Origin: the human T2T-CHM13v2.0 reference genome, Homo sapiens
Length of the DNA: 64,000 bases
Strand: one strand, 5' to 3'
NCBI RefSeq assembly: GCF_009914755.1
Contig: NC_060928.1
Position numbers and translations under genes: made by a program. Below the pieces are notes generated by a model that had not been told where the DNA came from, ran no database searches, and worked only from the letters and a program-made list of their open reading frames with translations. Shown here in pieces: positions 10,880-41,055 of the stretch. Position 1 is the stretch's first letter. The number at the start of each line of letters is the position of its first letter.

Positions 10880-11258
10880 TGTATAGGTCCGTTCTCACAC
10901 TACTAATAAAGACATCCCCAAGACTGGGTAATTTATAAAGGAGAGAAGTTTAATTGACTCACAGTTCTGCACGTCTGGGAAAGCCTTAGGAAACTTACAA
11001 TCGTGGCAGAACTGGGGATGAACATGTTCTTCCTCACGTTGCGCCAGGAAGGTGAAGATTGAGAGCCAAGTGAAGGGGGGAGCCCCTTATAAAACCATCA
11101 GATCTCCTGAGTACTTACTCACTATCACAAGAATAGCATGGGGGAAACCACTCCCATGATTGAATTACCTCCTATTTGGTCCCTCCCACCATACATGGGG
11201 ATTATGGGAACTACAATTCAAGATGATATTTGGGTGGGAACACAGCCAAACCATATCA
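10880..11258 (-). mobile_element. THE1 solo LTR (ERVL-MaLR), THE1D-like
   Basis: tgtat...ccatatca termini, 379 bp, with 'gccccttataaaaccatcagatctc' and 'actacaattcaagatgatatttgggtggg'. Confidence 0.9.
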
Positions 11259-35298: not shown

Positions 35299-36649
35299 AC
35301 CTGTGTGGGGGTTTATATTCACAAATATCTGTATATTTGATTAGAAAACCCACAGAGAGATCAAGGGCTCTCTATATCCTGCTAAGTTCTGAAGGATTCC
35401 CCCATAATGTGCCCCCACCTACTCACTACCCTATCCTCCAATGTCATAACTGCAATAGAGATCCACTTCCATCTGCTCGAGGCTATTTAGTAGTTCAATA
35501 ATAAACAAGGTTGTTGTTTAGAGAAAAAGAACCAGTGTTCCCCTGCCATTTTTTTCAAACTTTCACTTTACTTGTTCTGTCTTATTAGATCTAGTTACCC
35601 ATAGGACCTTTCCTATAATAAAGCAAACAGTTACTGCTAATTATATTTCAGGACTTGTAAGGAACACTAAAAATATAAAGACATATATGCCATTATATCT
35701 ACTTGCAGAGTATTTATAGTCTTTAGAGGGGAACAGAGAAGTAAATTAAAAACTAAAGGGTGGTGACATAAATACTATAAGAAAGAGAAATAAGGATGCA
35801 ATAGGAAACCCTGAAATCAGGTTTTTTTCTGACTTACCTCAGTTGACTAGCCCAGCACATTAGATCCACCCTCCCCTTTTCCAGCTCCTGAAGCTTACTT
35901 CAAACAAAACCTGTCTCACCTCCTCTCAGTCCCAAGACTCAGATCCATTTTCACACCTATGGACTATTTAGTTTTGATGAGAGTAAATAGCTTCTTCATA
36001 CTGTAACTATTCTACCTGATATCTTCAAATGTATTAACATTCCTTTATCCTGTAGTTATATAGTTGATGGTATTTCTTACATAACATTGTATTTCTGGTA
36101 CACCTTCTTGGTTTTAAGAAGTATTGCTACATTCATCATACTATGTGCTTGAGTTTTATTCATCTCCCTGTTGATGATTCCAGAAATGCAGGTTGATGTA
36201 TCACACAAATAGCCCCTCTAACTATAGTTCTCATAATAGACAACAGTTAAATATTTTTGTCACTCCTTAAAGCACTTTCTTAGAACAATGCCAACTAATA
36301 TGAGGCACAGAAGTGCATCAGTCATTACTGCTTTTGTTCACATATGCAATCTGTCATCACCAGCTTCTTTGCCTCTGCTTACAAAAATACTAAGTATTTC
36401 TCAACACTAAAGAAACACAAATTCAAAATTTTTCCGAAGTTATCTTGCTCCCACAAGGATATCCCTGCCTTTAAGGGCTAACTTCTCAGATTACACTCAC
36501 TACCTCTACTTCCTTACACTTACACCTTACGTCTTGAAACTTCACTTTGAATAATTTTGTAGTAGGGTTCCACGAACGACCAGCTCCTTCTTAAAACCTG
36601 CTTTTATATTCATCCCTTGGGGCTGGGCGTGGAGGGGCAGAAGAAAAAG

Positions 36650-36792
36650 TCAGATGTGGGTTCACATTCTAGCTCTGCTACTTCCTGAGGATCCTTTGTC
36701 ACAGTGGCAGACCATAAAATCGGATTAATAATGCTTACTCCTTAAAATAATTTACAAAATTAAAGGAGAAATCAGTTGTGCAAATCTGTCTC
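36650..36792 (+). mobile_element. MIR 5' part, interrupted by the retrocopy; 3' remnant resumes at ~39652-39700
   Basis: 'gggttcacattctagctctgctactt...ataaaatcggattaataatg...aattaaaggagaaatc' on the left; 'cattagataattaatcattttagttccctt' on the right. Confidence 0.55.
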
Positions 36793-36846
36793 TTTTTTTG
36801 CCCTTTCAGTTTATTTTATTTTTATATTTTTTAACATTTAAAGATA

Positions 36847-36852
36847 TTTATT
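36847..36852 (-). terminator. AATAAA poly(A) signal of the CTAGE-like 3' UTR
   Basis: tttatt on + strand, ~15 nt from the A-rich tail at 36810-36832. Confidence 0.7.
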
Positions 36853-37065
36853 TGAAAAATAATACCTTACAATCCTAGTCCTATCAATCAAACTTCAGTA
36901 AGAGCAATTTTAGCATCAACTAACAGTAGCTAAACTAACAACAGATCAACTGAAAGTGTTTTAAAGGGAGCAGAACCAGCTGATGTTCTGTAGAGTCCAT
37001 GGACATTCAGGACCTGGCTACAAGGAAAGCAAAGCCAAACCGGCAGGTGGTCTGGAGAGAAGCCC

Positions 37066-38546
37066 TCATACCCACACCGTGACCAGCTTCCCTCCTGGTG
37101 GCCCTAGCGGCCCATGAACCCCCTGTGGGGTTCTGAGCCCCTGTGGGCTGTGGGTCAAACCCCAGAATCCAAAGGGCCACTCAGGAAAGGCTAGAACTTG
37201 GAACTCAGTCATCTGGCTTCTGCGTGTTGTGGTCATTTTCTTTCTGGAGCACCTGGAGCACTCTCTTGGTGGACGTTGTGGCCATCCAGCCTTCCTGGGC
37301 CATTTTCTCACGGAAGAAGATCTCCCTATGAAAATTGGAAGCGTCTTCCTTCAATTCCTGGGCCAGGTCTTCTTGTAGTGGTTCTGAGCCATTTTCTTGT
37401 AGTAGTTGCGGGTGTAACACACACGTTTCAAATTTTTTTGCACCTTGAAAAGTCTCTGGTTGAGGTGCAGGCAGTGGGCGTCCTCCTCCGTGGACTCCTG
37501 CTGAGGCCCCATTGTGGGTTCTTGGTGCAGTGCAGGTGGAGTGGGATCCTCAGCTGCAGCTTCAGGAGCTCCTTCTCCAGCTGTGTCCTTGCACCCTGCA
37601 GAGAGCCCTGCTGGTCCAGTCAGACTTTGGACTTGTGCTGTGACTTCTTTCCTCCTTTGGATTTCTTTTCACAACTGCATGTCTGCTTCTTCAGTCTCCC
37701 CCTCAGGACATTCGAGGGACACATCTAAGTCACCATCATCATCCACACTCTTTGGAGGGTCTTGTGGCCAGGACACTGGGGAACCACCATGTCCCGCTTC
37801 CCTGTTCCCCTCCACTGCCGAGTTACCATCCTCACATGATCTCCCACCCTCAAGCAGATGCAGGATGCTCGGCGGGGTGTGGCCCGGGGAGGTCAATCAC
37901 CTCACTTCAACATTCGTGGTCTGCTTAATTCCAGTCTTGGCCTGCTCCTGCCTTTCCTTCTTCGCCTTTTTTCTGGCAAACGTTGCTTTCATCTCACAAT
38001 TTCTTGGTGGGGCAGCTCTGCAGGTGGCTGACAGTCCGTGCTGTCCTTCAGATCCTCCGCAGTTTGCCCCTGAAGATCTTCTCCCTCGTGCTGTGAAACA
38101 TGCGGGACCCGCTTTGTTCAGTCACTCGGGGAAGTTCAGGAGATTTGTGTTTTTGTGCTTTTTTCAGAGGCACCCCGAAGTCCTGATGGGAAGACTTGCT
38201 TATTTCCTTGAGAACCCTTGAGTAGAGGGTTTGGAGTGATCGAGGACTGGCCTGCGGCATGGGCAATATGAGGCCACCACCACCCTGGGGTGCTGGCTGA
38301 ATCTTGACTCTGGCCTTGATGATCTCACCCTGGGCCGACTCCCTTTGGGCTGGCTCTTCCCTTCTTCTCACCGCATGTCGTCTCCTGACTATAAAGGCCG
38401 CCACAACAGTGCACGACCGTATCACCCAGGATATCCATAGTTTGCAGGCATTAGTCCCAGGATTCTCTACATCACTAGCACTGTCACCCACATGTGGGCC
38501 AGCAGCAGCTCAGAAGGCATTTCGTGGTGGGAAGCAGGCCCTCCGT
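37066..38546 (-). pseudogene. Frameshifted, intronless CTAGE/MIA2 (TANGO1-family) coiled-coil pseudo-CDS
   Basis: Stitched frames give 'QDPPKSVDDDGDLDVSLECPEGETEEADMQL*KEIQRRKEVTAQVQSL', 'QLEKELLKLQLRI', 'YYKKMAQ..DLAQELKEDASNFHREIFFREKMAQEGWMATTSTKRVLQVLQKENDHNTQK'. These are collinear with recalled cTAGE5 'LNASLKTLEGERNQ...FENENQKLQQKLK...[57 protein letters not shown]'. Start context gccACGg at 38546; multiple stops and frameshifts. Confidence 0.8.
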
Positions 38547-39591
38547 GGCTCCCGAGAGCTCTGCAGCTCTGCCTCTCCTTGCCAGTGGCGTGTGGGCCAC
38601 AGCTGACCACTGGGAACTCTGCAGAGTGTTCCGTCTCCAACACAAGAAATGGCCCACCAACAAGGTAGACCATCCATCTGCTGGGGATAGGGAAGGTATC
38701 CTGTGTTCCAGAAAACTGTGTCCCTGATTTTGCTGTGCAAATAGAAAGTGACATTACTTATGCAATGCCTTGGGGAAGTGGAAAGAGCTCATGGCAGCCC
38801 CTAGCTCAAGCCACTCCAGATCCTACCAGGCCCTAAAGCAGAGCTAGAGAGTCAAAGCAGGGCCACGCCATGGTCCTGAGTCCACACATGATCCTCTCAA
38901 GGCAACATGGTGGCCCATCCCAGGTGAGGCTCATGACCGTGATTTCATGTTTCCTTCTGCTGCAGGGAAGCCTGGTCCTACTTGCAAAAAGTCTGTCTAC
39001 CTTGCTAGATTGAGCTGCCTGAAGAAAGGACTCTGTTTTCTTCATCTCCATATCCCATGTATCTAGCTAATGCTCACTACACTCCAGGGACTGGGTCATT
39101 GTTTATCTTATTTTTTTGTTGACTCTACTCTGACTTAGGACGTGCCACTTTCCCTCTTGACCTCCATATTCAGATCTGTACATAAGAGGAAGTGGGTAAA
39201 GTTCCCTCTAGCTTTAAAACTCCTCCAATACAGAGAGAACTCTGAAACCAGAGCCAGAAGCTGAGGAATGGTGAAGATGGTGAATGGAACATTTTCCTTG
39301 GCATGATGGAGGGGACCTGCAGGTTTGGCTATTAGGGTAGCATCTGGCCACTTCAATGCCTCTGCAGAATTTGATTCCAGCTTTCAAATCAGACTCAGAA
39401 ATGATCTTCAGTGTCGGTGGTTTTATGGTTTGTTTCTTTTTTTTAATTGACACAATAGCTTCTGAAAATCTTTTTCATGGAGAGTATGGGGGCTTCTTTG
39501 ACCAAATTGCGTGGGTGCAGACTCCATCTGCTCATCAGCCACTGTCTGGGCCACAGCGTGTCTTCAGAGTCCTGCTCCTGTACATAGGTTT

Positions 39592-39651
39592 AATCATGGC
39601 AGAAGGCAAAGGAGACCCAGACACGTCTTCCATGACCAGAGCAGGAGGCAA
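39592..39651 (-). mobile_element. MSTA (ERVL-MaLR) LTR-derived first exon of the retrocopy
   Basis: Minus strand 'ttgcctcctgctctggtcatggaagacgtgtctgggtctcctttgccttctgccatgatt' matches the MSTA R region and ends where the consensus continues GTAAGTTT. Confidence 0.8.
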
Positions 39652-40759
39652 TGTGCAGATCTTTCTCCATGCATTAGATAATTAATCATTTTAGTTCCCT
39701 TTCTGCATTCTTTCTTTTAGCAAATTGTGTGCCTTATGTGATACTGGCTTAGAACAATACCAAATAAGCTGTAGGAGTATGTAAGTTCTTAGAAAGAAAC
39801 TAGCGGAAGGTGATGGTTTTCAAAAGAGGGTTATATTTTCAAAGGGAAAATGTTATGGACCTAAACTGAGTATTTTACCTTTAATTTAATGTACGCTACA
39901 ATATATTTATACCAGTGAATAAAATCATGATTTTTTGCTTAAACGATTTTATTAAAGATAAACTGAGAATAAGATGACTGCTATCATGCTTTAAAAACAA
40001 GACTGTGTTCTCTTCATCAACATTTTCTTCCCCTTCATTTCAGATCACTTCTTCCCTTTTATTTCAGACCATAATTGATTCTACCTTTGAATTCTCCTAT
40101 CCTCCTCTAATTGCTACCAGCATATTTTCCAAGGAACTTCTTAAAAGTGTATTTTCAAGACACCTTTCTATATGCCTCTAACCAGAATTACATTCCTTTT
40201 CTTTTGTGCCCTTATAGCATACTGTGTATATTTATCATATGATGTTGCTTTTGTCGTTGTTGTTGTTTGTAACTTGCTTGGTTGTTGTTGCTGCTTTTCT
40301 GGACTTATCTTATTGATAGAATTCTACATTTTAGCATTAGAAGGGACATCTGAGTTTGTGGTCAACTCTAAAATGAGTCCAAAGTTCAACTTTACCTCTC
40401 AATTACTGAATAGACTTAGCAAGTTATAAAACCTCCTACCCATTAGATTCTGCCACTATAAAATTGAATTAATGTCAATTTTATAGAATGGTTATAAAGA
40501 TTAAAAATAATACCTCTAACTAACAGGGTGCCTGCTGTATAATAGGCCATCAGTAGTTATTACTTGTAAGATTTTAGACAGTGTACCTGAACATGTCTTT
40601 ATCCTGTGAAAGTTCTGTTACAGGGAATGCCTTGCGTTTAATATGTAATTGAAGAAAGGAAGAGTTGGAAAGATGATTGGACATCTAGGGCTATGGTGAT
40701 CACATGCATAGCTTGCAAAACTTAACAAAATAAAGATAATACTTAAGAATTTACAGGAA

Positions 40760-41055
<296 letters not shown>

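What the first reader, a model, noticed from the sequence alone, without database searches (positions are those of the whole stretch)
36777..39667. Fossil mRNA: ~2.86-kb retrocopy of an MSTA-LTR-driven, spliced CTAGE/MIA2-like transcript
Seen: a 16-bp TSD (14/16) in a split MIR brackets, on the minus strand, an MSTA LTR exon, ~1 kb of leader, a CTAGE-like pseudo-CDS, a 3' UTR and poly(A). The insertion is therefore ~1.1 kb longer at its 5' end than the pseudo-CDS alone. Known: MaLR LTRs (MSTA, THE1, mouse MT) provide oocyte/early-embryo promoters and first exons, and L1 retrocopies sample germline RNA. Inference: an ancestral primate locus expressed a diverged ER-export-factor paralog from an MSTA promoter in the germline, and this copy records that transcript.
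Basis: partly seen in the sequence, partly recalled or inferred. Interest (0 to 1): 0.85.

Follow-up and report, generated by a model that had tools for sequence, protein, structure and literature searches.

The report
Retrocopy preserving an LTR-started FAM120AOS–cTAGE-like transcript
This is a dead, reverse-transcribed copy of an ancient messenger RNA that began in a retroelement LTR, was spliced onto exons of the FAM120AOS gene and carried a cTAGE5-like coding region; it is one of at least 22 such copies in the human genome.

Summary
Window 39651-36793 (minus strand) is an L1-type processed retrocopy with a 16-nt target-site duplication (14/16), AATAAA and an A-rich tail.

Its first about 57 nt match the middle of a MaLR/MST-type LTR. 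They start 35-38 nt after the LTR's TATA-like box and stop where LTR copies read GTAAGT.

The next base is the first base of exon 2 of an intron-bearing locus on chr9. That locus lies head-to-head with FAM120A exon 1, so it is FAM120AOS.

The "leader" is FAM120AOS exon 2, 479 nt of exon 3, and then the 5' UTR of a second unit. That unit encodes a decayed, roughly 500-aa cTAGE5/MIA2-like protein. Intact relatives are annotated in fox, hippopotamus, bats, camel and horse.

The copy is not unique. There are 21 siblings, 3 older relatives and the source locus. Of 11 retrocopies that keep the exon-2 boundary, 8 use the CpG-island exon 1, 2 use an alternative donor in it, and only this one uses the LTR.

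Human FAM120AOS holds neither the coding unit nor a matching LTR within 82.6 kb.

The parts
39652..39667 (-). 5' target-site duplication
   Evidence: 14/16 match to 36792-36777, directly outside the insert
39592..39651 (-). LTR-derived first exon (about 57 nt of a MaLR/MST-type LTR, from near its transcription start to its splice donor)
   Evidence: 89.7% to LTR positions 197-254 of a 392-nt copy. A TATA-like box starts at LTR position 159. LTR copies read GTAAGT/GTGAGT right after the last matched base in 3 of 5.
39470..39591 (-). Equivalent of FAM120AOS exon 2 (insert positions 61-182)
   Evidence: Matches L018 6512-6392. In the chr9 locus this stretch is flanked by a polypyrimidine-AG acceptor and a GCAAGT donor.
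38991..39469 (-). Equivalent of the first 479 nt of FAM120AOS exon 3 (insert positions 183-661)
   Evidence: Matches L018 3607-3156. In the chr9 locus it is preceded by a polypyrimidine tract and CAG. Homology to the chr9 locus ends at positions 661-674.
38589..38990 (-). 5' UTR of the cTAGE-like unit (insert positions 662-1063)
   Evidence: Shared with all siblings and, from about position 662-673, with the older copy L026. Absent from the chr9 locus.
37022..38588 (-). Decayed coding region of a roughly 500-aa cTAGE5/MIA2-like protein (several frame changes and stops)
   Evidence: tblastn of extant ~500-aa proteins: P0143 residues 2-495 map to insert positions 1064-2630 in changing frames. 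ORF fragments. Weak hits to CTAGE loci.
36833..37021 (-). 3' UTR with polyadenylation signal AATAAA at 36852-36847
   Evidence: Aligned with 16 siblings. 10 of the 17 aligned sequences end at this site followed by an A-run.
36793..36832 (-). Degenerate poly(A) tail
   Evidence: A-rich run that begins where siblings' tails begin and ends at the 3' TSD
36777..36792 (-). 3' target-site duplication

Best explanation
Window 39651-36793 (minus strand) is an L1-made processed pseudogene of a rare 5' isoform of an extinct chimeric gene.

Inferred history: a full-length mRNA copy of a roughly 500-aa cTAGE5-like gene became joined in sense, at a non-splice junction, to the first 479 nt of exon 3 of FAM120AOS. 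FAM120AOS's promoter and its exons 1-3 then drove a fused transcript that ended at the unit's own poly(A) signals.

This transcript was abundant enough in the germline to leave at least 22 retrocopies. Their divergence from the family consensus is K2P about 0.14. That is roughly 60 Myr at an assumed 2.2e-9 substitutions per site per year, a recalled rate.

Most transcripts began in the FAM120A/FAM120AOS CpG island. The one copied here began about 35 nt downstream of the TATA-like box of an upstream MaLR (MST-type) LTR. It used the LTR's own GT donor and was spliced to the exon-2 acceptor, skipping exon 1.

Shown: the TSD and tail, the LTR match and its two end points, the exact exon-2 and exon-3 boundaries with introns at the chr9 locus, the siblings with other 5' exons, and the cTAGE-like homology.

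Inferred: germline expression, the way the fusion arose, the position of the LTR, and the age.

The copy itself is non-functional. It has several frame changes and stops, and no gene is annotated there.
For: 1. Retrocopy features. There is a TSD of 14/16 plus AATAAA plus an A-tail. The two introns of the chr9 locus, about 400 bp and 2.8 kb, are absent here.

2. LTR exon. Window 39648-39591 matches LTR positions 197-254 at 89.7%. The TATA-like motif starts at LTR position 159. In 3 of 5 LTR copies the next bases are GTAAGT or GTGAGT. Franke et al. 2017 (PMC5538554, passages read) state that MaLR LTRs carry a splice donor near their 3' end.

3. Acceptor. The base after the LTR piece is the first base of an exon that, at L018, follows ...ttgttctttttttggAG. 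Exon 1 there ends ...ctgaag|GTacag.

4. Same acceptor, other 5' exons. 8 siblings carry exon 1 up to the distal donor (L003, L011, L013, L015, L016, L019, L020, L021). 2 carry it up to an upstream GT donor (L012, L017).

5. Identity of the chr9 locus. The plus-strand ORF beside exon 1 is 98-100% identical to proteins named FAM120A.

6. Closeness of the locus to the family. Its exons 2 and 3a are K2P 0.088 from the family consensus, within the siblings' range of 0.064-0.12 over the same span.

7. Coding unit. The family consensus aligns gaplessly to CTAGE ORFs at 33-36% over 210-218 aa, E about 1e-31. It aligns end to end with extant ~500-aa proteins at 32-47%, best E 1e-99. Sources name those proteins MIA2, cTAGE family member 15-like or CTAGE5-like.

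8. Fusion point. Homology to the chr9 locus ends, and homology to the older copy L026 begins, within positions 661-674.
Against: - No LTR of the matching type was found in chr9:105,601,500-105,684,145, which includes 65 kb upstream of exon 1. The one MaLR LTR there, same strand and about 62 kb upstream, matches the window's piece at only 33 of 76 aligned columns, against 55 of 76 for the reference LTRs.
- The coding unit is not in human FAM120AOS exon 3 or in the 13 kb downstream, so the master locus as inferred does not exist in this genome.
- The LTR start is seen in 1 of 11 copies only.
- The retrocopy's 5' end lies 35-38 nt, not about 30 nt, from the TATA-like box.
- 2 of 5 LTR copies lack GT at the donor position.
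- The TSD has 2 mismatches, and 2 of 200 shuffles matched as well.
- No TSD was recovered for any of 13 siblings with my crude end points.
- The consensus is a plain majority rule and still has one frame change.
Confidence: 0.8

Rival explanations
1. Template-switch chimera. During L1 reverse transcription of the ordinary FAM120AOS-cTAGE-like mRNA, the enzyme jumped to an unrelated LTR-containing RNA. The LTR piece was therefore never spliced to exon 2.
For: L1-made chimeric retrocopies are known (recalled). The matching LTR is not found near the source. Only 1 of 11 copies has the LTR piece.
Against: The jump would have to leave the mRNA exactly at the exon-2 start and enter the LTR RNA exactly at its GT donor. 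The copy would then have to end near the LTR's expected transcription start. Three coincidences are needed where splicing needs none.
Confidence: 0.07
2. Chance neighbour. A retrocopy truncated at position 61 landed beside a pre-existing 57-nt LTR scrap, and the apparent TSD is a chance match.
For: 2 of 200 shuffles gave an equally long match. Old LTR scraps are common, and another MaLR LTR lies at window 10880-11258.
Against: The TSD copies sit flush against both ends. No other LTR sequence flanks the scrap. Truncation exactly at an exon boundary and a scrap ending exactly at the LTR donor are each unlikely.
Confidence: 0.04
3. One reading: a stand-alone cTAGE-like gene whose normal promoter and first exon were an MSTA LTR.
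For: The LTR piece has the right start and donor.
Against: 10 of 11 copies that keep the exon-2 boundary start in the FAM120A/FAM120AOS CpG-island exon. 601 nt of the leader are FAM120AOS exons 2 and 3.
Confidence: 0.05

Closest known systems
LTR-initiated chimeric transcripts from MaLR/ERVL LTRs (mouse MT/ORR1 in oocytes and zygotes; Franke et al. 2017, PMC5538554, passages read)
   Same: Transcription starts inside the LTR, a splice donor near the LTR's 3' part is used, and the transcript joins a host exon's acceptor.
   Different: It is known here only as a DNA fossil. It involves a primate MST-type LTR, there are no expression data, and the LTR is not found at the human source locus.
Processed pseudogenes as records of past splice variants (Shemesh et al. 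2006; seen only in the reference list of PMC5470649)
   Same: Retrocopies preserve alternative isoforms. Here three different 5' ends are joined to one acceptor.
   Different: The record includes an alternative LTR promoter, and it concerns a gene that no longer exists in this form.
Chimeric retrogenes that recruit a host gene's promoter and 5' exons (review PMC5470649, sections read by passage: jingwei, TRIM5-CypA, Carelli et al. 2016)
   Same: A retrocopied coding unit is fused to another gene's 5' exons and promoter.
   Different: The master is absent from the genome and is inferred from its second-generation retrocopies. The junction lies inside an exon and is not a splice site.
cTAGE5/MIA2/TANGO1 ER-exit-site proteins and the human CTAGE retrogene family (review PMC4565863, passages read)
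   Same: Homologous second coiled-coil region, and a membrane-anchor-like N-terminus in the extant ~500-aa relatives.
   Different: Only 33-36% identity to human CTAGE ORFs. It is about 500 aa with only a short proline-rich end instead of a long PRD, and it forms a separate lineage from the known CTAGE copies.
Orphan retrocopies whose parent is lost (Ciomborowska et al. 2013, as cited in PMC5470649)
   Same: Copies persist although the parent form is gone from the genome.
   Different: All copies here are pseudogenes, and the parent was itself a fusion.

Membership tests
L1-mediated processed retrocopy | Target-site duplication flanking the insert | tested here: met
   16 nt, 14/16, flush with both ends; 2 of 200 shuffles matched as well
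L1-mediated processed retrocopy | Poly(A) tail after a polyadenylation signal | tested here: met
   AATAAA at 36852-36847 and an A-rich run at 36832-36793. 10 of the 17 aligned sequences end at this site with an A-run.
L1-mediated processed retrocopy | Introns of the source are missing | tested here: met
   The chr9 locus has about 400-bp and 2.8-kb introns at insert positions 60/61 and 182/183, and the window has none
L1-mediated processed retrocopy | L1 endonuclease-type target (TTTT/AA-like) | tested here: inconclusive
   The site is pyrimidine-rich on the nicked strand but is not the consensus (read; the consensus is recalled)
LTR-initiated chimeric transcript | 5' end inside an LTR, downstream of its TATA box | tested here: met
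   The match starts at LTR position 197 and the TATA-like motif at 159
LTR-initiated chimeric transcript | The LTR part ends at a GT donor | tested here: met
   GTAAGT/GTGAGT follows in 3 of 5 LTR copies; the other 2 read ATAAGT and CGAAAG
LTR-initiated chimeric transcript | Joined to a genuine acceptor of a host exon | tested here: met
   Polypyrimidine-AG precedes the same base at L018, and 10 siblings join other 5' exons there
LTR-initiated chimeric transcript | The LTR is present upstream of the host gene | tested here: not met
   None of the matching type in chr9:105,601,500-105,684,145. Further upstream and other species were not examined.
LTR-initiated chimeric transcript | Transcript evidence (oocyte, embryo, testis) | not testable with these tools
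   No expression data on hand
MSTA subfamily of MaLR LTRs | Best match to the MSTA consensus in a repeat library | not testable with these tools
No Dfam or Repbase. Only genomic LTR copies were compared.
cTAGE5/MIA2/TANGO1 family | Homology of the coiled-coil region | tested here: met
   E about 1e-31, 33-36% over 210-218 aa, gapless with the C10 ORF. A profile search finds proteins of TANGO1, MIA2 and cTAGE5 lengths.
cTAGE5/MIA2/TANGO1 family | C-terminal proline-rich domain that binds Sec23/24 | tested here: not met
   The consensus ORF and the extant ~500-aa relatives end after a short Pro-rich stretch. CTAGE ORFs carry about 250 more residues.
cTAGE5/MIA2/TANGO1 family | Membrane anchor near the N-terminus | tested here: inconclusive
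   Extant relatives have a hydrophobic stretch after an FPWE-like motif. The window's equivalent is frame-shifted. No predictor was run.
MIR as the target site | Both flanks continue one MIR copy | tested here: inconclusive
   No hits; resemblance by eye only

The most novel reading that the evidence does not exclude
Human FAM120AOS, an 'opposite strand' gene of unknown function, is the surviving 5' stump of an extinct early-primate chimeric gene. In that gene the FAM120A/FAM120AOS bidirectional promoter, and occasionally an upstream MST-type LTR, drove a roughly 500-aa cTAGE5-like ER-export-type protein at high germline levels. The coding part has vanished from the human locus. The 22 retrocopies, with at least three different 5' ends, are its only record in this genome. 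The 5'-cut copy 44 kb away inside FAM120A (L009) may be a remnant of the master itself.
Probability: 0.35. Interest if true: 0.65.

Novelty: new member of a known kind. Interest (0 to 1): 0.5.

Why it matters
The copy gives sequence-level evidence that, at an estimated 60 Myr ago (divergence K2P 0.14 at a recalled rate), a MaLR LTR acted as a promoter with its own splice donor onto a host exon. Such use is normally known only from present-day RNA.

It also uncovers a family of 22 retrocopies that I did not find described in print. That family reconstructs a lost fusion gene and links FAM120AOS to a fast-evolving cTAGE5-like lineage still intact in other mammals. The copy itself has no function.

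Tried and rejected
- Pfam on five window ORFs, on the FAM120A exon and on a CTAGE ORF gave no family.
- Rfam on 35500-41000 gave nothing.
- The PDB sequence search gave only chance-level hits, E 0.9 or higher.
- The first protein search with the window's 114-aa ORF returned only two unnamed ORFs of the same family.
- MIR test: BLAST of both flanks against about 330 kb of fetched DNA found no hits. A genome search with the 3' flank found only itself.
- A TSD scan of 13 siblings found none. My 5' end points are approximate and old TSDs decay, so I draw nothing from this.
- Search for the source LTR: the 64-nt piece and two full LTR references against chr9:105,601,500-105,684,145. The single MaLR LTR found is of another type.
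- Search for the coding unit at the source found nothing in L018, L031-L033, L039, L040, L043 or L044 apart from L009.
- I considered that position 661 is a splice donor whose G was lost by CpG decay. I set this aside because the older copy's homology starts at the same point.
- I considered L006 as a fourth splice isoform, with exon 1 joined to about position 752. The junction fits GT..AG but also microhomology, so it is left open. L022 and L029 are internal deletions without GT-AG.
- Literature: FAM120AOS with 'retrocopy' gave 0 papers. FAM120AOS with 'pseudogene' gave 8 listings, none judged relevant from title and abstract start. Supplements were not available.
Full report
**What is in the window.** On the minus strand, 39651-36793 is a GC-richer block (0.52-0.57, against about 0.31-0.40 in the flanks). 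It is bounded by GAGAAAGATCTGCACA (39667-39652) and GAGACAGATTTGCACA (36792-36777), a 14/16 match. It ends with AATAAA (36852-36847) and a degenerate A-run (36832-36793). In one search the same scan on 200 shuffles of the 3' flank gave an equally long match twice. The real pair, however, sits flush with both ends of the insert. Rfam finds no RNA family here.

**It is one of a family.** A search of the window's own genome with the insert found the window plus 25 other loci:
- 21 siblings at 71-81% identity that together cover insert positions 61 to about 2850;
- one intron-bearing locus on chr9;
- three older relatives, at about 60% identity over long lenient alignments and 67-76% in short pieces.

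Positions 4-60 matched only unrelated places at 85-91%. Ten loci began their match at exactly position 61.

Seventeen 3' ends, the window's among them, were aligned:
- 10, including the window, stop at the same poly(A) site and continue with A-runs;
- 4 (L009, L021, L025, L030) run about 250 nt further to a second AATAAA;
- 3 are unclear.

A majority consensus of 20 sequences, made in a script with the LTR part left out, lies K2P 0.10-0.19 from its members. The mean is 0.138 and the window is at 0.139. At a recalled neutral rate of 2.2e-9 per site per year that is about 60 Myr.

**The first 57 nt.** Five of the places hit by positions 4-60 were fetched. They align as one LTR of about 375-392 nt with TG...CA-type ends.
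- Window 39648-39591 matches positions 197-254 of one copy at 89.7% (which also served as the positive control).
- A TATA-like motif starts at LTR position 159, so the retrocopy's 5' end lies 35-38 nt downstream of it.
- Right after the last matched base the LTR copies read GTAAGT, GTGAGT, GTAAGT, ATAAGT and CGAAAG. That is a consensus 5' splice site in 3 of 5.
- Franke et al. 2017 (PMC5538554, passages read) report that MaLR LTRs carry a splice donor at about this position.
- The subfamily name MSTA could not be tested.

**The source locus.** At L018 (chr9:105,611,500-105,621,000, minus strand) the family's sequence is interrupted by introns:
- A CpG-rich first exon ends ...ctgaag|GTacag.
- About 400 bp later comes ...ttgttctttttttggAG|aaacc, and aaacc is insert position 61.
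- That exon (positions 61-182) ends ...aaaaag|GCaagt.
- After 2.8 kb comes ...tttcttttcAG|atttcc, which starts positions 183-661.

So the LTR piece in the window is joined exactly to the exon-2 acceptor.

The plus-strand ORF next to exon 1 is 98-100% identical to proteins that NCBI and UniRef name FAM120A. The minus-strand exons are therefore FAM120AOS. That gene name follows from its position opposite FAM120A and is my inference.

Exons 2 and 3a of this locus are K2P 0.088 from the family consensus. Siblings over the same span are at 0.064-0.12. The locus, or a then-identical duplicate, is therefore the source and not an old paralogue.

**Other 5' ends on the same acceptor.**
- Eight siblings carry exon 1 up to the distal donor: L003, L011, L013, L015, L016, L019, L020 and L021. 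L011 also has a later 610-bp TG...CA element inserted 4 nt past the junction.
- Two, L012 and L017, lack the last ~88 nt of exon 1. They join ...gcag|aaacc at a point where L018 reads ...gcggcag|GTgctc.
- Only the window has the LTR.

That makes three different upstream sequences on one acceptor, two of them ending at GT donors visible in the source. These are the marks of splicing. They argue against a template switch or a chance neighbour.

**The rest of the leader and the coding unit.** Homology to FAM120AOS exon 3 stops at positions 661-674. No GT follows in the chr9 locus. Homology to the older copy L026 (chr21) starts at 662-673. So positions 662 to about 2860 are a second unit, joined at a non-splice junction.

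The window's 114-aa ORF gives weak hits (E 0.006-0.3, 34-43% identity) to loci with 800-860-aa open frames on chr7, 6, 10, 13 and 18. Two were fetched and encode 777- and 811-aa proteins that I recognise, from recall, as CTAGE family members.

The family consensus aligns to these at 33-36% over 210-218 aa, gapless with one of them, at E about 1e-31.

A profile of 11 unaltered ORFs found 216 proteins at E of 1e-3 or better among 1.84 billion. Many are 480-530 aa with the match at their C-terminal end. Sources name relatives of one of them as follows:
- 'Melanoma inhibitory activity protein 2' (arctic fox, 492 aa);
- 'cTAGE family member 15-like' (hippopotamus, 504 aa);
- 'CTAGE family, member 5-like' (camel);
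- uncharacterised proteins of horse, deer, rhinoceros, yak, another bat and elephant seal.

The consensus matches these from about residue 13 to the end at 32-47%, best E 1e-99, with one frame change. In the window the same region (38588-37022) needs several frame changes and contains stops. The Atlas look-up puts the best relative next to clusters named TGO1 and MIA2 (a lead only). No sibling has an open frame above 198 aa in this region.

**What does not fit.**
- The human FAM120AOS locus holds neither the unit nor the LTR. The unit is absent from exon 3 and from the 13 kb downstream.
- Two LTR references and the window's own piece find nothing in chr9:105,601,500-105,664,145.
- The only MaLR LTR in the next 20 kb is of another type: 33 of 76 columns match, against 55 of 76 for the references.
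- One family member, L009, lies 44 kb upstream of FAM120AOS exon 1 on the same strand, inside FAM120A. It starts abruptly at position 999, has no detectable TSD and no clean A-tail. With 21 siblings in 3.1 Gb, a copy within 50 kb of the source is expected by chance about once in a thousand (my estimate). It may be a remnant of the master or of a local duplicate. I could not decide.

**Mechanism proposed.** A full-length retrocopy of the cTAGE-like mRNA landed in sense in exon 3 of FAM120AOS or of a duplicate of it. The fused gene was expressed in the germline from the bidirectional CpG island and, rarely, from an upstream LTR. L1 copied its mRNAs at least 22 times, and the master was later lost. 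The first and last steps are inference. Chimeric retrogenes that borrow host 5' exons are well known (PMC5470649, passages read).

**Comparison and novelty.** Every ingredient is a known kind: the processed pseudogene, the LTR alternative promoter with its own donor, the chimeric retrogene, and the retrocopy as a fossil of an isoform. What I did not find in print is this family, its link to FAM120AOS, or a retrocopy that preserves a MaLR-initiated first exon. Only listings were seen for most papers, and supplements were closed. I rate it a new member of a known kind, with moderate interest.

Noticed in passing
L009 = chr9:105,660,901-105,662,645 (T2T), minus strand: A family member holding positions 999 to about 2900 lies 44 kb upstream of FAM120AOS exon 1, inside FAM120A and on the FAM120AOS strand. 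It has a sharp 5' edge, no TSD and no clean A-tail. Its proximity to the source is unlikely by chance.
   Followed up: partly
L018 6392/6391 (chr9 about 105,617,891): Intron 2 of the FAM120AOS-side locus starts with GCAAGT, so it is a GC-AG intron in this genome.
   Followed up: no
window 10880-11258, minus strand: A second, more diverged MaLR-type LTR copy (65-79% to the LTR references).
   Followed up: no
L011 5794-6403 (chr13 about 35.478 Mb): A 610-bp TG...CA element with a 4-nt duplication (a solo LTR by its look) sits 4 nt past the exon 1/exon 2 junction of that sibling.
   Followed up: partly
L026 (chr21:36.59 Mb), L027 (chr21:37.22 Mb), L028 (chr4:179.97 Mb): Three older copies of the cTAGE-like unit alone, without FAM120AOS exons. 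They are as far from the extant ~500-aa proteins (31-43%) as the young family is.
   Followed up: partly
L012, L013, L014: Three siblings each lack about 530-570 nt of the coding region, with different end points (positions 1205/1737, 1581/2121, 1413/1984). They read as separate deletions, but this was not examined.
   Followed up: no
L006 about 1490-1501 (chr20:19.86 Mb): Exon 1 is joined to about position 752 at a point compatible both with a GT..AG splice and with a microhomology deletion.
   Followed up: partly
L044 7273-7630 (chr9 about 105,681,418-105,681,775), minus strand: A MaLR LTR of another type lies about 62 kb upstream of FAM120AOS exon 1 on the same strand. Its donor position reads CT.
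   Followed up: yes
P0001, P0002; P0123: Public protein collections hold ORFs predicted from these human pseudogene copies. One is 99% identical to the window's 114-aa ORF, and one matches L027.
   Followed up: no
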